DNA of 18,112 nt from a virus, in the UHGV virus genome UHGV-0337628; one strand, 5' to 3'. Below the pieces are notes generated by a model. That model saw nothing but the letters and a program-made list of their open reading frames with translations, did no database searches and was not told where the DNA came from. Below are positions 7,605-13,356 of this stretch, piece by piece. Position 1 is the first letter of the stretch, and every line of letters starts with the position of its first letter. The position numbers and the translations under genes were made by a program.

Positions 7605-9803
7605 TTACTGCTGTGGTTGTTGCTGAGTTGATTTTTGCAGGATGCTGCTGATGTCAATGCGCTGCGCATGGCCCTGTGCCTGACTTTTCAGGACAAGCTC
7701 TGCATCAGCACGGGCATTGTCTCCTTGCTGTTGCTGGAACTGTCCGAGCAGTTTCAGAGCCTCGCGGATATCAGATTTCTGCTGGCTATCAGCAGATGCG
7801 AGGATTTTCACAACGTTTGCCGCTGCAACCTGAGCATCAGTCTGTGCCTGGAATGCTTTAACCTGAATGGCTGCCTGCTCGTTCTGCGCTTTCTGCAATT
7901 CAGCCTGACCAGCAAGAAGCTGACCTTGCGCAGCAACCATAGCCGGATCTGGCTGACTGGCCTGTTGTTGTTTCGCCTGCTCAACCATCTGCTGTTCTTC
8001 TGGCGTTCTCGGCTTGATAACTCCAGACAGAAGCAACTGATTGCGGTTGTATTCTTTAAGGTCGTCCATCCCTTCGCCGTCCATATTGTCGAGGATCATC
8101 GACGATACAAGGTCGTGTTTCGGCGTTCCGGGCGGGATAAGTGCCAGCATGGAAAGTAACGACTTAACCGTTGCGTCACGGCGAGTAGCGAACGACTGAC
8201 CGACATCGACAGTCACTTCATAGTTACCCTGCGAAAGGTCGTTAAGCGCGATAACCTGCCCTGTCTGACGGTCAACCACTTCACCAGTCATCAGCGCCAC
8301 GTCATCGCTGCCGTCCTCATTAACGATACGCATCGGCGTATCACTGCCATAGACCTCACGCGCCATAGAAAGCCACACAACGCCAGCGCGACGCATGGAT
8401 TTAGCCATGTTGTCCATGTAGATATAGGACTGCGTGTCCATCCGGTTAAAAATGCTATCAACAGTATCGGTGGCGACGTTGCTCGGCATGTTCTCAAGCT
8501 GCGACGCACCTGTAATTTGCTGAATAGCCGTTCCGGTGTACTGCAATAGCCCGGCAAGAGCAGGAGGCATTTGTGTCGGGGGTGTCCAGCCAGCAACCTG
8601 AGCTTCTGAAATGACTGTTCCGTTTTTGTCCTTCTTGCTGGTCATAGGAAGAACTGCAGGTCTTTTCTTATTCCTCTCTGCCCAGTGATTCATTAATGGA
8701 CCGGGAATGAAATCAACATCCACGATAGGAATGCCATCACCGCCAGCCTGAGTAGCGTTATCTGCAATCATGGAAACCATCAGGTTCTCAAGACGCTGTG
8801 CATCCATCGCTTTTGCTGCGTGGCCTTCGATTCGCTCCTGATTATCAACAAATGATCGACGCCCATATACCGGGATGAGAGGAATATGTTCGCCCGGAAT
8901 ACGCTTCGGTTCTTCCAGCCATTCAGCGCCAGACAGAAGACCGCAATAAACGCGGCGCTTCTTCACCGTTCGCTCGCCAATCAGTTCGAATGCACCATCG
9001 GTCAGCTCGTCGACAATATCTTTGATTTGCTCTTCATCATAAATTGCCGTTTCTCCGCTAACAGGGTTGCGCCACGCCGTGAGCTTCACCTTCTCTATGC
9101 GAACTTCGTAGTAGCGTCCAACATAGATGGCATCGGGCGTTGACCAGTCATACTGAGTACCAGTGTCATCACGAGAAAGGCTTGCCGCGATGGAACCAGG
9201 GTATTCGGCCTCGAACGCTTTAGGCGTCATGGAGAACATTTCCATAGCCCACATAGCATCAGAGCGGTCATATTGCTTGCTGTCCTGATCGAAGAAGACG
9301 CATGTCGCCGGGTCGTAAACAGGAAGAAGGCTGATGCGTCGCTGCTCGTTACTCGGATCCATTTCATCTTCGTAATCGGCACACATGCGGAAACAACCGA
9401 ATCCGCCCGTTACAGCATCATCAAATGCGTTATCACACGCTTCACCACCTGATGTTTCCTGATAGTCAGCGCGGAATTTGCCGTTCATCTTTTCGGCTAA
9501 CGCTTCCGATGCCTTATCGTCCTTCGGCCTGAATTTAACGCTGATGCGATTCTGTCGATACTCGCCAATGATGCGATCACATTCACGGGCAATCTTATTC
9601 AGTTCAAAGCGCGGATAGTGCTCAAACCTGCCTTCATCAAATGAGTAACCAGCGTTTGTGCTGCCTTCCCACTGTGCGCCGGACACCCGGACGAAACGCT
9701 GAGCCTCAATAATCTGCTCACGCATATCCTGCGTTGCTGACCAGGCATTATCAAAGTTGCACAGCACCTTGCGATGCCAGTCAGTCATCTTTTTTTCTGC
9801 CAT
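7605..9803 (-). CDS. portal protein, P22 gp1-like
   Basis: 732-aa ORF; long Gln-rich helical C-terminal tail (...PEEQQMVEQAKQQQASQPDPAMVAAQGQLLAGQAELQKAQNEQ...) resembling the P22 portal barrel region as I recall it; directly downstream of the large terminase. Confidence 0.9.
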   Translation of the reverse strand: MAEKKMTDWHRKVLCNFDNAWSATQDMREQIIEAQRFVRVSGAQWEGSTNAGYSFDEGRFEHYPRFELNKIARECDRIIGEYRQNRISVKFRPKDDKASEALAEKMNGKFRADYQETSGGEACDNAFDDAVTGGFGCFRMCADYEDEMDPSNEQRRISLLPVYDPATCVFFDQDSKQYDRSDAMWAMEMFSMTPKAFEAEYPGSIAASLSRDDTGTQYDWSTPDAIYVGRYYEVRIEKVKLTAWRNPVSGETAIYDEEQIKDIVDELTDGAFELIGERTVKKRRVYCGLLSGAEWLEEPKRIPGEHIPLIPVYGRRSFVDNQERIEGHAAKAMDAQRLENLMVSMIADNATQAGGDGIPIVDVDFIPGPLMNHWAERNKKRPAVLPMTSKKDKNGTVISEAQVAGWTPPTQMPPALAGLLQYTGTAIQQITGASQLENMPSNVATDTVDSIFNRMDTQSYIYMDNMAKSMRRAGVVWLSMAREVYGSDTPMRIVNEDGSDDVALMTGEVVDRQTGQVIALNDLSQGNYEVTVDVGQSFATRRDATVKSLLSMLALIPPGTPKHDLVSSMILDNMDGEGMDDLKEYNRNQLLLSGVIKPRTPEEQQMVEQAKQQQASQPDPAMVAAQGQLLAGQAELQKAQNEQAAIQVKAFQAQTDAQVAAANVVKILASADSQQKSDIREALKLLGQFQQQQGDNARADAELVLKSQAQGHAQRIDISSILQKSTQQQPQQ

Positions 9804-9804
9804 A

Positions 9805-11220
9805 TCAACCTACACCACAAGGAATTGAGTAACTGGAATAGTCGGGTTGCGCAGCCGACTCCGGGCAATGCATACACATCATCAGCGCATCAGCCAGGTT
9901 AGGAGATGGAATACCGAGCTTCTGCTTCATTTCGACCTTAGTCATAAGCTCCAGCTTCCCGTTGTTATTGAATTTGCGCTGAATCTGCGTCAGTTCTGCA
10001 AACAGCTTCTCCAGCATATTCTCGCCTATCGCTTCTTTGTCGAAACTCAGCATGTCGTCGGGGTCTGCATACTCACCGTGGACAACCGCCCGATATGTCA
10101 GATACAGCCTGTCAGCCAGCGCGTAATAGAATTGCGCTCGCTTATTGCGGAATACATCGCCAATAGTGCGGACGTTGTCGCCCTGCACGACTTCATCAGC
10201 CCATGCTCCGGCCTGGTAAGGCGCATCTTCATCGAATGGCGATTCGCTACCCTTGAACATCGTGGCGGTGATTTTCTTACCGGAGAACGCTTCCGTTGTC
10301 TGTCTGCGTAGCCCGGCACCAACACCATCACCATCCCACAGGTAGTGGTCAGCGCCGTCTTCAATCGCCAGCGAAGTAGCCCAGTCAGCACCATCGTTGA
10401 TGTCCATCAGCAGACCTTCGGCAATGCGCTTAACTACCGAACCGTGGCGCGATGCGTAACCTTTAGCATCTGGCCCTGTATCTGATGGGTCATGCGCAGA
10501 GACAACAGCACCTTTCGCTTTCCATCCGAGTTTCTTGTGCGCATCGGTTGCGGCTTCAAGCCATTCACGTTTGATGATTGCCATATCACTTGCGCTTACT
10601 GGCTCACCAAGCCAGATGTGACGATACAGTGTCGGGTTTCTGCGTTTACACTCTTCCATCTCCAGACGGAGAACTTCAGGAAAGTGCGGGTTGTCGGTGT
10701 AGTTCACCGTCAGCAGACAAATATCATCGGGAGGATTTACGACGAATCGCTGATAGGTATCGTCGAGGATGTTCTTCGGGTTAAAGCTCACCCATATTTC
10801 AGAGAACGGCTTACGGATGGTTGGTATCAGGATATCCCATGATTCCTTCGTTACCGCCTCCGCTTCTTCCACCCAGCAGATATCAATACCTTCGAGCGAT
10901 TTAATCTTCGTCGGGTTGTTTTTTATTCCGTAGAACATGAATTCAGCATTCGTTCCGAGATGACGAATCATTGAACGCTGAATTTCAAACTCAGCCGAAT
11001 ATCCTTCACGCTCGATGGTGTCTTCAAGCAACCGGATTACAGAATCGCTGATACTGTTTTGCAGTTCACGAGCGCAGAGTATGCGCACAGGCTGCCGACG
11101 CGCCGCTTCAACAAGCAGTCTCGCAATTGCCCATGACTTACCGCTACCTCGACCGCCTTTGGCGACTTTGTAGCGATGCGCCTCAATGAACGGTTCAAAG
11201 ATAGGATTAATCGAGGTCAT
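9805..11220 (-). CDS. terminase large subunit (ATPase/nuclease), Sf6 gp2-like
   Basis: 471-aa ORF; Walker A motif KGGRGSGKS near the N-terminus; 4-bp overlap with the small-subunit gene; strongly resembles my recollection of the Sf6/CUS-3 large terminase. Confidence 0.9.
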   Translation of the reverse strand: MTSINPIFEPFIEAHRYKVAKGGRGSGKSWAIARLLVEAARRQPVRILCARELQNSISDSVIRLLEDTIEREGYSAEFEIQRSMIRHLGTNAEFMFYGIKNNPTKIKSLEGIDICWVEEAEAVTKESWDILIPTIRKPFSEIWVSFNPKNILDDTYQRFVVNPPDDICLLTVNYTDNPHFPEVLRLEMEECKRRNPTLYRHIWLGEPVSASDMAIIKREWLEAATDAHKKLGWKAKGAVVSAHDPSDTGPDAKGYASRHGSVVKRIAEGLLMDINDGADWATSLAIEDGADHYLWDGDGVGAGLRRQTTEAFSGKKITATMFKGSESPFDEDAPYQAGAWADEVVQGDNVRTIGDVFRNKRAQFYYALADRLYLTYRAVVHGEYADPDDMLSFDKEAIGENMLEKLFAELTQIQRKFNNNGKLELMTKVEMKQKLGIPSPNLADALMMCMHCPESAAQPDYSSYSIPCGVG

Positions 11221-11744
11221 TTTCCGAATAGAGTGCTCATCGGTGATGTTTCAATCTGGATTGCGCCGCCGTCTTTGCCTGTTAATTCGTGAGAAGCTTG
11301 TTCTTTAAACGCCTGAACAGAAACATGCTTACCAAGAAGTTCGAGGTTTTTAACCTTATCAGGCCATTTGATTTTCTTCAGAAGTGCGGCGCTATCTGCG
11401 GATACCATCTCCACGACATCCATTCCTGATAGCGTTGTGCGCCATACCTTAGGCCAGTCTTTAATTGGCTTTAACTCGCCGTTTTGCAGGAGAATGTCGA
11501 GCACATCCATCTGGTCGATTTCAATAAGGCGATTAAGTACATATTCTGCATTAATACCAACAAGATCATTGCGTTGCGCTTTCAGTTCGGAGATTCTTAA
11601 CTTGATATCAGGTTTTGACAGGTTTTCGGATGCGGTACGGTTAGCTGTCTTTGCGCTGTACCCCGCCCGAATAGCCGCTTGCGTGGCATTTAAATCGATG
11701 AGGTACTCGCGACAGAACATTTCTTGTTTGTCGGTGAGTGCCAT
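11217..11744 (-). CDS. terminase small subunit
   Basis: 175-aa ORF immediately upstream of and overlapping the large subunit gene; N-terminal helix-turn-helix-like region (MALTDKQEMFCREYLIDLNATQAAIRAGYSAKTA) typical of small terminases. Confidence 0.8.
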   Translation of the reverse strand: MALTDKQEMFCREYLIDLNATQAAIRAGYSAKTANRTASENLSKPDIKLRISELKAQRNDLVGINAEYVLNRLIEIDQMDVLDILLQNGELKPIKDWPKVWRTTLSGMDVVEMVSADSAALLKKIKWPDKVKNLELLGKHVSVQAFKEQASHELTGKDGGAIQIETSPMSTLFGK

Positions 11745-11770
11745 TTTTTACTTCCCATAAGGAGATTGTT

Positions 11771-11953
11771 ATGAACGATGACTTTAAAACAGGTGACATT
11801 GTTAAACTGAAATCAGGCGGACCTGACATGACTATCAGGTCATTTTCATCTACCCACGGTAACTCTTTTCTTTGTCAATGGTTTGCTGGCAAGAAGCTTG
11901 AGCAAGGATATTTCAAACCGGAATCTCTTGAGCGCGTTACCCCAAAGCCATAG
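11771..11953 (+). CDS. DUF2158 (YodC-like) family small protein, 60 aa
   Basis: ATG at 11771 with a strong AAGGAG Shine-Dalgarno 7 nt upstream; product MNDDFKTGDIVKLKSGGPDMTIRS... carries the GDxVxLKSGGPxMT signature I associate with DUF2158/YodC. The track's 11738 start is an in-frame upstream extension lacking a ribosome-binding site. Confidence 0.7.
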   Translation: MNDDFKTGDIVKLKSGGPDMTIRSFSSTHGNSFLCQWFAGKKLEQGYFKPESLERVTPKP

Positions 11954-11997
11954 TCCCAAACACACCAACCTTAACTCTTGATGATATTTCATCATGG

Positions 11998-12237
11998 ATG
12001 ATGTCCGTTTTATCAACAGAGGGTTGCCTTTATCAGCAGGATGTTGTGGATTATCTCGTTAAACAACATAACGAGCAGCACCTCAAAGAAAATGCGGATG
12101 GCAACCAAGCGATATCAACAAAAGTGATTAATAAATTCAGGGTTGATAGCGGTGAAAGTGTTGTTTGGGTTAAGCCAGATAAGTACTGGCGTTTCCGTGT
12201 GCCTGAAGACGAAAACGGTCGTGAAGCTCGCGGTTAA
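11998..12237 (+). CDS. hypothetical protein, 79 aa (second gene of the plus-strand cassette)
   Basis: ORF with protein-like composition (...VVWVKPDKYWRFRVPEDENGREARG); same strand as and 44 nt downstream of the DUF2158 gene; followed by a hairpin. No clear Shine-Dalgarno, so lower confidence. Confidence 0.45.
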   Translation: MMSVLSTEGCLYQQDVVDYLVKQHNEQHLKENADGNQAISTKVINKFRVDSGESVVWVKPDKYWRFRVPEDENGREARG

Positions 12238-12250
12238 ACTAATCAACGAT

Positions 12251-12282
12251 AAAAGGCAGCATGTTGAGTGCTGCCATATTCA
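12251..12282. terminator. candidate bidirectional intrinsic terminator between convergent genes
   Basis: Perfect 7-bp stem GGCAGCA / TGCTGCC (12255-12261 and 12269-12275) with a 7-nt loop; flanked by AAAA on the plus side (giving UUUUAU on the minus transcript) and a T-rich stretch downstream on plus. Confidence 0.45.
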
Positions 12283-12312
12283 TCTCACTTATTTGTTATT
12301 TCAGGTTGAGCA

Positions 12313-12555
12313 TCATGCTCCGGTAGTGAACAGGTCTAACGCTTCCTTCGATTTACGCACCGCTTCGATAGTGCGGGTCGTGATATCCGAATTAGCGCCG
12401 CCTGACTGGAAGTGAATTTTGAATAGCTCAAGCTTCAGCTCGTCAGTGCCAATGAATTGAAATGCTTCTTCTGCGGCTGCGTTCTGGTTCATGACCAGTT
12501 TGTAAATCTCTAACTGGAATTTCTGTTCTTCAGTCATGGGAATAATCTCTGCCAT
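12313..12555 (-). CDS. hypothetical protein, 80 aa
   Basis: ORF with GGAG Shine-Dalgarno 6 nt upstream of the ATG at 12555; acidic, helix-prone product (MAEIIPMTEEQKFQLEIYKLVMNQNAAAEEAFQF...); family not recognised. Confidence 0.5.
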   Translation of the reverse strand: MAEIIPMTEEQKFQLEIYKLVMNQNAAAEEAFQFIGTDELKLELFKIHFQSGGANSDITTRTIEAVRKSKEALDLFTTGA

Positions 12556-12849
12556 TGTTGGCTCCGTTTATCCGTTAAAAGGGATATCAGTTAAGTTATC
12601 CCGTGTAGGGTATAAGCCATTGTCGAGACCACTCATTGAATGGCCTCTGCAATAACCGATGTCTTTCCATCAGTCCGCCACCACAAAGAATCTTTTTTGC
12701 CATAAGGCTGGAGGTTCATCTTTCAGTGGCTGCCAGTGTTATTTCCCCACTTTCTGGCTTGGGTTGCTTCGTGGTACTGCCATAACTGGTTGCCCAGAAT
12801 AAGCTCCGGTTTCATTATCAAGCCCACCCGCAGATAGGCTTTGTAATGG

Positions 12850-13137
12850 CTACTTCTTCAGAAATGATTCGATGAACTCACGCCGGGGATGACGATAGTT
12901 CAGAATATCTTCTGGCATCCTCATAAAGCGGTTGTTGCCGTCTTTGGCAGTAACGAAACAGCTGTGAACTCCGCAGACATCCGTTTTGATCGTGTCGCCA
13001 TACTCAAAAAGCAACTGCGCCATCTTCTCTTGCCATTCTTGCGGCATAGCCTCCATGAATACTCTCGGCATCACGCAGAACGACGCATGCGTCAGGCCAA
13101 ACCACAATTGCAGGTCTTTACGATATTCTTCATCCAT
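12850..13137 (-). CDS. hypothetical protein, 95 aa
   Basis: Internal ATG at 13137 preceded by AAAGG 8 nt upstream and by a terminator hairpin; product MDEEYRKDLQLWFGLTHASFCVMPRVFMEAMPQEW... The track's 13257 start is a TTG and would read through the hairpin. Family not recognised. Confidence 0.5.
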   Translation of the reverse strand: MDEEYRKDLQLWFGLTHASFCVMPRVFMEAMPQEWQEKMAQLLFEYGDTIKTDVCGVHSCFVTAKDGNNRFMRMPEDILNYRHPRREFIESFLKK

Positions 13138-13152
13138 CGTCTTTACCTTTGT

Positions 13153-13181
13153 TGCAATAAAAAGCCCCGCGAATGCGAGGC
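13153..13181 (-). terminator. intrinsic terminator-like hairpin downstream of Rz, immediately upstream of the 95-aa ORF
   Basis: Minus strand GCCUCGC-AUUC-GCGGGGC (7-bp G/C-rich stem, one G-U pair, 4-nt loop) followed by UUUUUAUUG. Confidence 0.55.
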
Positions 13182-13356
13182 TAAATCCTGGTATTTGTAA
13201 TGATCTGGCTCTTATCTCAACGCAACCCCTTACTGCGCGCCAGATGCTCAATATCAAGCATCAGCAATGAGATGTTTAATCTGGATTCACTCCAGAAGCG
13301 ATCACCACCCTGTCTACAGAGCCAGATGTGAAGGATGATGAGTAAAATTATCGCTA

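What the first reader, a model, noticed from the sequence alone, without database searches (positions are those of the whole stretch)
11217..11775. Promoter for the antisense cassette must lie inside the terS coding sequence
The terS ATG (11744) and the DUF2158 ATG (11771) are 26 bp apart and divergent, so any promoter for the plus-strand genes has to be embedded in terS. The best candidate I see is weak: TTGTTT (11725-11730) with a 17-bp spacer to TTTTAC (11748-11753) or an 18-bp spacer to TTTACT (11749-11754). In P22-like phages the pac site also lies within the small terminase gene, so this short stretch may carry overlapping coding, promoter and packaging signals. I cannot locate the pac site by eye.
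Basis: inference. Interest (0 to 1): 0.4.

Follow-up and report, generated by a model that had tools for sequence, protein, structure and literature searches.

The report
Moron promoter buried inside terminase gene
A small two-gene accessory cassette in a P22-like E. coli prophage sits back-to-back with the small-terminase gene and is most likely transcribed from a weak promoter about 170 bases inside that gene, the counterpart of the mapped pid promoter of phage P22; this is an ordinary kind of prophage "moron", but it shows where P22's oddly long pid leader came from.

Summary
The geometry is real. terS (11217-11744, minus) and the DUF2158/YodC gene (11771, plus) start 26 bp apart, and that gap holds only two back-to-back ribosome-binding sites.

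They score no better than chance, lack the key -10 adenine, and are not conserved across 61 alternative junctions.

The general inference holds for a better reason. The 5' half of this terS is homologous to the untranslated DNA upstream of the P22/BTP1 pid moron, whose promoter and start site were mapped experimentally. These project onto -35 TTGCGT 11569-74, -10 GATTCT 11592-97 and start G11604. That gives a 167-nt leader antisense to terS codons 1-47.

In 190 related loci, 81% carry a divergent gene 19-38 nt from the terS ATG, drawn from 50 unrelated families. The projected promoter position is the most recurrent promoter-like site and tracks cargo presence. Ten longer terS relics that travel with cargo keep at least 221 nt.

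The pac site cannot be placed: this TerS is SPP1-like at its N-terminus and unrelated to P22 gp3.

The cassette is an ordinary antisense moron. It does show that P22's "long pid 5'UTR" is a terS relic.

The parts
11217..11744 (-). terS, small terminase subunit, 175 aa. The N-terminal part is SPP1/SF6 G1P-like. The last 36 residues (window 11220-11327) are like the Sf6/Gally TerS tail.
   Evidence: Pfam Terminase_2 E 1.1e-39. PDB 3zqp E 1.6e-11 for residues 3-76, and Sf6 gene 1 protein E 4e-8 for residues 143-175. Local blastp: 61% identity to Gally TerS over residues 140-175, and no hit to P22-type gp3.
11745..11770 (.). 26-nt divergent gap made of two back-to-back ribosome-binding sites: the complement of the terS Shine-Dalgarno sequence (CTTCCC 11751-56) and the cargo AAGGAG (11759-64). 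It is the sharp left junction of the swappable cargo.
   Evidence: Sequence. Homology between near-identical terS genes with other cargo ends at 11744-11752 in every case.
11771..11953 (+). First cargo gene, DUF2158/YodC family, 60 aa.
   Evidence: Pfam DUF2158 E 2.4e-18. phrog_3261, unknown function. No PADLOC hit.
11998..12237 (+). Second cargo gene, DUF6953 family, 79 aa.
   Evidence: Pfam DUF6953 E 3.1e-18. phrog_10782 E 3e-44. No PADLOC hit.
11569..11604 (+). P1, the positional homologue of the P22/BTP1 pid promoter: -35 TTGCGT 11569-74, 17-nt spacer, -10 GATTCT 11592-97, projected start G11604. It lies antisense to terS codons 47-59. The last T of the -10 is the complement of the first base of the AGA codon for R50.
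   Evidence: Alignment to P22. Mapped P22 promoter and start site from PMC8835761. It is the most recurrent promoter-like aligned position in cargo-bearing relatives. AGR codons at R50 reach 55% against 12% at other Arg codons. The core motif is present in 27/38 cargo-bearing and 6/27 cargo-less representatives. It is kept in 9/10 long relics.
11615..11641 (+). P2, a secondary candidate: perfect -35 TTGACA 11615-20, 15-nt spacer, -10 TACGGT 11636-41. A start would fall near 11648.
   Evidence: Top position-weight score in the window (9.7 bits), which equals the mean maximum of shuffles. Equally frequent with and without cargo, 63% against 67%. No start site was seen at the homologous place in BTP1 dRNA-seq.
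11604..11770 (+). Predicted 167-nt leader of the cargo mRNA, fully antisense to the terS ribosome-binding site and codons 1-47.
   Evidence: Projection of the 174-nt pid 5'UTR. Fold -59.1 kcal/mol, z -3.2. No Rfam match.
11655..11744 (.). Near-invariant block covering terS codons 1-30. It contains an imperfect hairpin at 11702-11742 (GGTACTCGCGACAG...TTGTCGGTGAGTGCC, -22 kcal/mol), followed on the plus strand by a T-run at 11744-11749.
   Evidence: Pairwise synonymous identity is 0.73-0.85 in cargo-bearing loci against 0.36-0.46 mid-gene. Fold. 92% of cells are paired, but covariation is inconclusive. The block is kept as a 58-78-nt non-coding leader in short relics.
12255..12275 (.). Hairpin at the 3' end of the cassette (GGCAGCA-N7-TGCTGCC). 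It resembles a bidirectional terminator, with the better U-tract on the minus strand.
   Evidence: Terminator scan. Folds of -14.5 (plus) and -17.6 (minus) kcal/mol. Homology to HK620-type phages resumes at 12264-12315.
11724..11752 (+).
   Evidence: Coordinates. Scores of -5.7 and 2.2 bits, ranks 232 and 19. Not conserved across 61 junctions.

Best explanation
The plus-strand DUF2158-DUF6953 pair (11771-12237) is a moron. It occupies a conserved slot that abuts the start codon of an SPP1-type small-terminase gene in a P22-like prophage.

The 26-nt gap holds only the two ribosome-binding sites. Transcription therefore most likely starts inside terS, from a weak sigma-70 promoter: -35 TTGCGT 11569-74, a 17-nt spacer, -10 GATTCT 11592-97, and a start near G11604. 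This is the positional homologue of the experimentally mapped pid promoter of P22/BTP1.

The RNA would run antisense through terS codons 47 to 1 and through a conserved hairpin (11702-11742). It would then pass the cargo ribosome-binding site and both cargo genes, ending near the hairpin at 12255-12275.

Shown: the homology, the geometry, the comparative pattern, and the P22/BTP1 experiments.
Inferred: that the same promoter fires in this window, the leader length, and the 3' end.
For: 1. Window 11494-11748 is homologous to P22 40740-40990, directly upstream of pid. Identity is 74.5% overall and about 93% over the last 90 nt. The P22 segment is a frameshifted terS relic covering TerS residues 1-89.

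2. In P22/BTP1 the promoter was defined in three ways (PMC8835761):
- up-mutations in the -10;
- gfp fusions;
- dRNA-seq, which placed the start site 174 nt upstream of the pid ATG at P22 nt 40880.
I checked these coordinates against the sequence. They map without gaps to 11569-74, 11592-97 and G11604.

3. Of 355 aligned positions in terS, 11592 is the one most often promoter-like (at least 4 bits) in cargo-bearing representatives: 68% against 32% of cargo-less ones. With better cargo calls the figures are 71% against 26%. The core TTG-N20-xAxxxT occurs in 27/38 against 6/27 (Fisher p 1.4e-4).

4. The last T of the -10 requires the rare AGR codon at R50. AGR is used there in 55% of dereplicated genes, against 0-13% at six other conserved Arg codons.

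5. Natural deletion series. Ten truncated terS relics next to cargo, in phages with other terminase types, keep 221-316 nt. Nine of the ten keep TTGCGN-17-xATyCT. Two of them carry the same YodC-DUF6953 cargo as the window. The inactive P22 construct Ppid232 ends at the equivalent of terS nt 211.

6. The divergent gene with a 19-38-nt gap is found in 153/190 non-duplicate related loci. A promoter upstream of the cargo must therefore lie in terS in all of them.
Against: - There are no transcript data for this window or for any locus with an intact terS.
- P1 is weak by sequence: 3/6 in each hexamer, 4.0 bits, rank 9. About 12 sites as good are expected by chance in this stretch.
- About 29% of cargo-bearing representatives lack the P1 core.
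- The association with cargo is phylogenetically confounded, because the cargo-less loci are mostly phages of Morganellaceae.
- The promoter segment itself is only about 65% identical to P22.
- P22 needs DNA upstream of -70 for activity. A CRP-like site seen there in P22 is absent from the window.
- The hairpin followed by U6 at 11702-11749 looks like an intrinsic terminator lying between P1 and the cargo.
Confidence: 0.55

Rival explanations
1. The cassette is driven by P2: the perfect -35 TTGACA (11615-20) with -10 TACGGT (11636-41) across a 15-nt spacer. The start would fall near 11648, giving a leader of about 123 nt.
For: - It has the highest position-weight score on the plus strand of terS, 9.7 bits.
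- TTGACA is strongly conserved. The Ser43 codon is TCA in 87/89 genes, and pairwise synonymous identity is 0.85-0.97 at codons 41, 43 and 44.
- It is kept in 6 of 10 long relics.
- It is the best site in 12/37 cargo-bearing representatives.
Against: - The score only equals the mean maximum of shuffles.
- A 15-nt spacer is poor for sigma-70.
- The -10 codons (N35, R36, T37) are variable.
- It is equally frequent with and without cargo, 63% against 67%.
- In P22 the homologous -10 lacks the essential A, and the BTP1 dRNA-seq analysis reports no second start site.
Confidence: 0.15
2. The -35 TTGTTT (11724-29) lies in the conserved terS block and the -10 TTTACT (11747-52) in the gap. The start would fall near 11757-11760, giving an mRNA with a leader of at most 14 nt.
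For: - The hexamers exist with a 17-nt spacer.
- Such a start would lie downstream of the hairpin-U6 and so escape it.
- Short relics (58-78 nt) keep just this block next to cargo.
- In P22 the 5'UTR segment +110 to +162 is needed for a second, smaller pid RNA.
Against: - TTTACT lacks the -11 adenine. Scores are 2.2 bits (rank 19) and -5.7 bits for TTTTAC.
- The start would fall on or within 2 nt of the Shine-Dalgarno sequence.
- The P22 fragment -244 to -12 has no promoter activity.
- Across 61 different junctions, -10-like hexamers at the right spacing are not enriched: 5% reach 3 bits, against 15% in shuffles.
- The short relics have better promoter-like sites in their new upstream DNA.
Confidence: 0.07
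3. There is no dedicated promoter. The cassette is silent or made only from pervasive antisense transcription. The hairpin-U6 at 11702-11749 terminates whatever starts in terS, and during lytic growth the convergent late transcript suppresses it.
For: - No candidate exceeds chance by sequence alone.
- The hairpin (-22 kcal/mol) plus the T-run resembles a terminator.
- Wild-type pid expression in P22 lysogens is too low to give a phenotype.
Against: - The cargo genes are intact and conserved, with strong Shine-Dalgarno sequences, across 50 families and many genera.
- pid is transcribed from the homologous DNA, and the full-length RNA passes the same hairpin.
- The P1 position is conserved and cargo-associated.
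- Ten longer relics keep at least 221 nt of terS.
Confidence: 0.15
4. The conserved terS 5' block (11655-11744) is conserved mainly for packaging or for terS itself (pac site, TerS autoregulation, translation control), not for the cargo. This does not exclude P1.
For: - In SPP1, the studied member of this TerS family, pac overlaps the ribosome-binding site and the part of gene 1 that codes for the DNA-binding domain (PMC6316719; PMC4737164).
- Synonymous conservation of codons 1-30 is also raised in cargo-less loci: 0.51-0.69 against 0.36-0.46 mid-gene.
Against: - Conservation is higher in cargo-bearing loci, 0.73-0.85.
- The block survives as non-coding DNA next to cargo in relics inside phages that use other terminase types: P22 gp3-type and HNH plus a small ORF I judged by eye to be a P27-type terminase small subunit. 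A foreign pac site would be useless there.
Confidence: 0.3

Closest known systems
pid moron locus of Salmonella phages P22 and BTP1 (Cenens 2013, PMC3573128; Wolput 2022, PMC8835761)
   Same: - The DNA upstream of the cargo is homologous.
- The -35, 17-nt spacer and -10 sit at the same positions, and both promoters are weak.
- Both have a long leader: 174 nt in P22, 167 nt predicted here.
- Both share the hairpin just before the cargo ribosome-binding site.
- Orientation is divergent within the late operon, with a hairpin after the cargo.
- Both lie between the lysis genes and the terminase.
   Different: - The cargo is unrelated: Pid (86 aa) against DUF2158 plus DUF6953.
- In P22 the terS segment is a frameshifted 264-nt relic between orf25/rha and orf80, and the phage packages with an unrelated gp3. 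Here the segment is the working terS.
- The -10 is GATTCT here and AATCCT in P22.
- The P22 CRP-like site at -61.5 is absent from the window.
- The P22 terminator has a good U-tract on the cargo strand. Here the better tract is on the other strand.
Lambdoid morons, such as lambda bor between Rz and cos, and the HK97 morons (from my own knowledge of Juhala et al. 2000 and Barondess and Beckwith 1990; not checked here)
   Same: - An extra gene or genes inserted between conserved late genes.
- Lower GC content, 41% against 49.5%.
- Opposite strand to the late operon.
- Presumed expression from the prophage.
- The same lysis-to-terminase location as bor.
   Different: Classical morons carry their own promoter in their own flanking DNA. 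Here the cargo brings only 19-38 nt, and the promoter lies in the neighbouring essential gene.
pac/gene 1 region of Bacillus phage SPP1 (PMC6316719, PMC4737164)
   Same: - The same TerS family at the N-terminus.
- Precedent for promoters, a ribosome-binding site, coding sequence for the DNA-binding domain and a packaging signal all overlapping at the 5' end of terS.
   Different: - The SPP1 promoters drive terS itself, not an antisense cassette.
- pac has not been located for the enterobacterial type.
- Any pacL-like part upstream of terS would fall in the hypervariable cargo.
P22 gene 3 and Sf6 gene 1 small terminases, which have internal pac sites
   Same: - The same phage type and gene position.
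- The last 36 residues match the Sf6/Gally-type tail.
- In the P22-like prophage Gally the packaging start maps inside terS (PMC9928086).
   Different: There is no sequence similarity to P22 gp3, and none to Sf6 gp1 outside the C-terminal tail. Their pac positions therefore cannot be transferred by alignment.

Membership tests
Moron (accessory gene cassette in a prophage late region) | Inserted between genes that are adjacent or differently filled in related phages | tested here: met
   HK620, CUS-3 and other P22-like phages match the flanks but not 11220-12264. Near-identical terS genes carry other cargo, with the junction at 11744-11752.
Moron (accessory gene cassette in a prophage late region) | Own promoter, active in the lysogen | tested here: inconclusive
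   There is no room in the cassette's own DNA (26 nt). The homologue of a mapped promoter lies in terS. There are no transcript data for this locus.
Moron (accessory gene cassette in a prophage late region) | Own terminator | tested here: inconclusive
   A hairpin at 12255-12275 is present, but the U-tract is good only on the minus strand.
Moron (accessory gene cassette in a prophage late region) | Base composition differs from its neighbours | tested here: met
   The cassette has 41% GC, against 49.5% for the window and 51% for terL.
pid-type locus (P22 Ppid promoter plus long leader) | Homologous promoter and leader DNA, with -35, spacer and -10 in register | tested here: met
   The gap-free alignment maps TTGCTT/17/AATCCT/+1 G onto TTGCGT/17/GATTCT/G11604.
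pid-type locus (P22 Ppid promoter plus long leader) | Transcription start about 170 nt upstream of the cargo ATG | not testable with these tools
   This needs dRNA-seq or 5' RACE. Only the P22/BTP1 data exist.
pid-type locus (P22 Ppid promoter plus long leader) | Encodes Pid | tested here: not met
   The cargo is DUF2158 plus DUF6953. No sampled locus with an intact terS matches the pid ORF.
Terminase_2 / SPP1 G1P-like small terminase | N-terminal helix-turn-helix DNA-binding domain and oligomerisation core of the family | tested here: met
   Pfam PF03592 E 1.1e-39 over residues 3-151. PDB 3zqp, 4zc3 and 2cmp with E from 1e-9 to 1e-11.
Terminase_2 / SPP1 G1P-like small terminase | pac overlapping the ribosome-binding site and 5' coding region of terS | not testable with these tools
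   Known for SPP1. Here there is only a conserved 90-nt block, and it also survives as non-coding relics.
P22 gp3 / Sf6 gp1 small terminase (pac placed by alignment) | Sequence homology across the DNA-recognition part of the protein | tested here: not met
   There is no hit to P22-type gp3. Only residues 140-175 match Sf6/Gally-type TerS.
   TTTTAC lacks both bases and TTTACT lacks the A. Scores are -5.7 and 2.2 bits (ranks 232 and 19), with about 12 sites of at least 4 bits expected by chance.
   Across 61 distinct junctions, -10-like hexamers 16-18 nt from TTGYTT are not enriched. The P22 fragment covering the homologous site is inactive.

The most novel reading that the evidence does not exclude
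The terS-embedded promoter plus the conserved leader hairpin may form a shared, portable expression platform for a hypervariable moron slot.
- At least 50 unrelated cargo families dock 19-38 nt from the ATG of this SPP1-type terS in phages of many enterobacterial genera.
- When cargo moves into phages with other terminases, it takes 221-316 nt of terS with it as a non-coding relic.
- The P22/BTP1 pid locus, with its unexplained long 5'UTR, is one such relic.

In intact loci every cargo mRNA is also a cis-antisense RNA to the terS translation start. Prophage accessory-gene expression and terminase synthesis could therefore be coupled.
Probability: 0.4. Interest if true: 0.6.

Novelty: new member of a known kind. 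Interest (0 to 1): 0.4.

Why it matters
- **Annotation.** In this widespread prophage type the regulatory DNA of accessory genes lies inside an essential packaging gene. Promoter searches limited to intergenic DNA will miss it, and recoding or deleting terS will silence the neighbouring moron.
- **P22 biology.** The result gives an evolutionary explanation for the "exceptionally long 5'UTR" of pid, which is the antisense of the first 89 codons of a foreign small-terminase gene. None of the four papers I searched (the two pid papers, the BTP1 paper and the phage L paper) mentions this.
- **Discovery.** The fixed junction at the terS ATG is a simple handle for harvesting prophage-expressed ORFan genes. 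Fifty families were seen here, almost none of them with a Pfam or PADLOC match.
- **Limits.** None of this changes the basic picture of morons, and the key step, that P1 fires in an intact terS, is untested.

Tried and rejected
- **Consensus promoter scans.** Neither the tool scan nor my position-weight scan gave a site above chance, so sequence alone cannot settle the promoter.
Rejected as the main promoter.
- **P2 (TTGACA).** Kept only as a minor rival, because its conservation does not depend on cargo.
- **Placing pac by alignment to P22 gene 3 or Sf6 gene 1.** Impossible, because there is no homology outside the C-terminal tail. The mapped packaging start of prophage Gally lies in an Sf6-type terS and is not transferable.
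- **Rfam.** No family matched in 11000-12700.
- **Covariation test of the leader hairpin.** 92% of cells are paired and 3 pairs change on both sides, but a slid control scores as high. The result is inconclusive.
- **Cargo function.** There was no PADLOC hit for the two window proteins or eight other cargo types. There was no Pfam hit for 8 of 10 cargo representatives, and one is DUF4145/HEPN-like.
- **Literature.** Searches for an earlier description of a terS-adjacent moron hotspot or a terS relic at pid found nothing. Leavitt et al. 2013 could not be read.
- **Alternative gene starts.** The DUF2158 gene starting at GTG 11738, or terS starting at Met9, would change the geometry. Both were rejected: Pfam and RefSeq starts and the AAGGAG at 11759-64 fit ATG 11771, and the Terminase_2 profile starts at residue 3.
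Full report
**What the window is**

The window is the late region of a P22-like (Lederbergvirus-type) E. coli prophage, with the late genes on the minus strand.
- Portal: 7605-9803.
- terL: 9805-11220.
- terS: 11217-11744.
- Further right come a DUF2560 gene (the P22 orf80 homologue, 12313-12555) and a series of further minus-strand ORFs; their functions were not tested here.
- Two small plus-strand genes lie between terS and DUF2560: DUF2158/YodC (11771-11953) and DUF6953 (11998-12237).
- Ten complete E. coli genomes carry the whole stretch at 97.5-99.8% identity with the same annotation.

**Check of the observation**

The terS start (CAT at 11742-44) and the DUF2158 ATG (11771-73) are divergent and separated by 26 nt. 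The gap holds the complement of the terS Shine-Dalgarno sequence (CTTCCC 11751-56) and the cargo AAGGAG (11759-64).

- TTGTTT is at 11724-29.
- TTTTAC is at 11746-51, with a spacer of 16.
- TTTACT is at 11747-52, with a spacer of 17.

They are no better than chance.
- The tool scan finds no promoter-like site in 11000-12700, against 2.2 expected.
- My position-weight scan ranks them 19th (2.2 bits) and 232nd (-5.7 bits) among plus-strand positions in terS.
- About 12 sites of at least 4 bits are expected in shuffles.
- TTTACT lacks the -11 adenine, and its start would fall on or next to the Shine-Dalgarno sequence.

**The lead that decides the matter**

A sensitive DNA search showed that window 11494-11748 is 74.5% identical to P22 nt 40740-40990. 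That window stretch is the antisense of terS codons 1-84. The P22 stretch is unannotated and lies directly upstream of the pid moron, between orf25/rha and orf80.

Identity is about 93% over the last 90 nt. At the protein level the P22 stretch is a frameshifted relic of TerS residues 1-89.

The pid promoter has been mapped (Wolput et al. 2022, PMC8835761).
- Up-mutations C-183A and C-182A fall in a degenerate -10, AATCCT.
- gfp fusions show weak constitutive activity.
- dRNA-seq of the BTP1 lysogen places the start site 174 nt upstream of the pid ATG, at P22 nt 40880.
- The fragment -244 to -12 is inactive.

I verified these coordinates on the sequence. They map without gaps onto the window as -35 TTGCGT 11569-74, a 17-nt spacer, -10 GATTCT 11592-97 and +1 G11604.

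**Comparative test**

I fetched 160 loci encoding this TerS type from genomes and IMG/VR, and 119 more by scanning for the conserved 5' block.
- Among 190 non-duplicate loci, 153 (81%) have a Shine-Dalgarno-led divergent ORF starting 19-38 nt from the terS ATG.
- The first cargo genes fall into 50 unrelated clusters.
- Almost all cargo genes are ORFans.
- Among near-identical terS genes with different cargo, DNA homology always stops at 11744-11752. The right-hand junctions vary.

The arrangement in the window is thus one instance of a fixed-junction, hypervariable slot.

**Is P1 conserved?**

- Of 355 aligned positions, the P1 -10 position (11592) is the one most often promoter-like in cargo-bearing representatives: 68% against 32% of cargo-less ones. 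With improved cargo calls the figures are 71% against 26%.
- The core TTG-N20-xAxxxT is present in 27/38 against 6/27 (p 1.4e-4).
- The last T of the -10 is the complement of the first base of the R50 codon. AGR is used there in 55% of dereplicated genes, against 0-13% at the six other conserved Arg codons.
- The second candidate, P2 (TTGACA 11615-20, 15-nt spacer, TACGGT 11636-41), scores higher in the window. It is equally common with and without cargo (63% against 67%), and it has no start site in BTP1.

Caveat: the cargo-less loci are mostly phages of Morganellaceae, so the association is not phylogenetically independent.

**Relics as a natural deletion series**

The block scan also found truncated terS fragments next to cargo in other contexts.
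- Ten long relics keep 221-316 nt of the terS 5' end. They sit beside other genes, including P22-type gp3, HNH-like ORFs and, next to one of these, a small ORF I judged by eye to be a P27-type terminase small subunit.
- Nine of the ten keep TTGCGN-17-xATyCT.
- Two carry the same YodC-DUF6953 cargo as the window.
- Five short relics keep only 58-78 nt, which is the hairpin block. Their new upstream DNA holds better promoter-like sites.
- No relic ends between 78 and 221 nt.
- The inactive P22 construct Ppid232 starts at the equivalent of terS nt 211.

This pattern fits a promoter that needs about the first 220 nt of terS.

**The conserved block and the pac question**

terS codons 1-30 (11655-11744) are unusually conserved at synonymous sites.
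- Pairwise synonymous identity is 0.73-0.85 in cargo-bearing loci.
- It is 0.51-0.69 in cargo-less loci.
- It is 0.36-0.46 mid-gene.

The block folds into a hairpin (11702-11742, -22 kcal/mol), followed on the plus strand by a T-run. Covariation is inconclusive.

In P22 the same hairpin lies at +95 to +135 of the pid RNA. That is inside the segment needed for the smaller pid RNA species of 350-400 nt, and 476 minus 95 is 381. Processing at, or stabilisation by, this hairpin is therefore a reasonable inference.

The block could also be, or overlap, pac. In SPP1, pac overlaps the ribosome-binding site and the 5' part of gene 1 that codes for the DNA-binding domain (PMC6316719). Its survival as non-coding DNA in phages with other terminases argues that packaging is not the only constraint.

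Pac cannot be placed by alignment. This TerS is SF6/SPP1-like in residues 3-76, Sf6/Gally-like only in residues 140-175, and unrelated to P22 gp3.

**Verdict**

The cassette is an ordinary antisense moron of the pid type with new cargo.
- The best-supported promoter is P1 at 11569-11604 inside terS (confidence about 0.55).
- Confidence that some promoter inside terS drives the cassette is about 0.8.

The by-product is that the P22 pid promoter and its long leader are a relic of an SPP1-type terS. This TerS type carries a widespread cargo slot at its start codon. I did not find either point in the papers I could search.

Noticed in passing
window 11220-11327 (terS residues 140-175): terS is a chimera. 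The N-terminal part is SPP1/SF6 G1P-like. The last 36 residues are 61% identical to the tail of Sf6/Gally-type TerS. The N-terminal and C-terminal parts of TerS therefore appear to have different origins.
   Followed up: partly
L002 (P22 NC_002371, reverse complement) 776-791: A CRP-like site, CATGA-N6-TCACA, is centred at -61.5 from the mapped pid start. The inactive Ppid232 construct begins 1 nt before it. This might explain why that construct is dead. The site is not conserved in the window.
   Followed up: no
window 11702-11749: The leader hairpin followed by a run of six T resembles an intrinsic terminator on the plus strand, between the terS-internal promoters and the cargo ribosome-binding site. 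The T-run is the complement of the A-rich spacer before the terS ATG, and it differs between cargo variants.
   Followed up: partly
L177, L194, L197, L200, L217 (IMG/VR) and L003 2501-2542 (E. coli ET670): Short relics keep only 42-78 nt of the terS 5' block next to cargo, with unrelated upstream DNA. In ET670 a prophage deletion ends exactly at the 5' base of the hairpin, window-equivalent 11703.
   Followed up: partly
window 11217-11744 (protein-level matches): Two PHROG families of unknown function, phrog_17390 (69 aa) and phrog_36099 (52 aa), match TerS residues 1-60 and 43-93. They are probably ORFs called on terS relics in sequenced phages.
   Followed up: no
L001 (BTP1 LT714109) 701-1015: The BTP1 record annotates pid as a 104-aa ORF that starts inside the terS relic. 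The experimentally supported Pid is 86 aa and starts at the AAGGAG-led ATG.
   Followed up: yes
window 12255-12275: The hairpin after the cassette has its better U-tract (TTTTATCGTT) on the minus strand. It may act mainly on late-strand or stray transcription entering the antisense cassette and terS. Homology to HK620-type phages resumes within or just after it.
   Followed up: partly
window 11615-11620: A perfect TTGACA lies antisense to L42-S43-K44. The Ser codon is TCA in 87/89 genes, and the motif is conserved with or without cargo. The reason is unknown.
   Followed up: partly
L005 2550-3697 (E. coli PS_131_S11) and other loci: Other occupants of the same slot include an 81-aa protein followed by an LPO_1073/Vpar_1526-family protein, a DUF4145/HEPN-like protein, small membrane proteins and many ORFans. 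None matched PADLOC defence models convincingly.
   Followed up: partly
window 12850-13257 (minus): A 135-aa ORF between DUF2560 and the next minus-strand ORFs to its right has no Pfam match.
   Followed up: no
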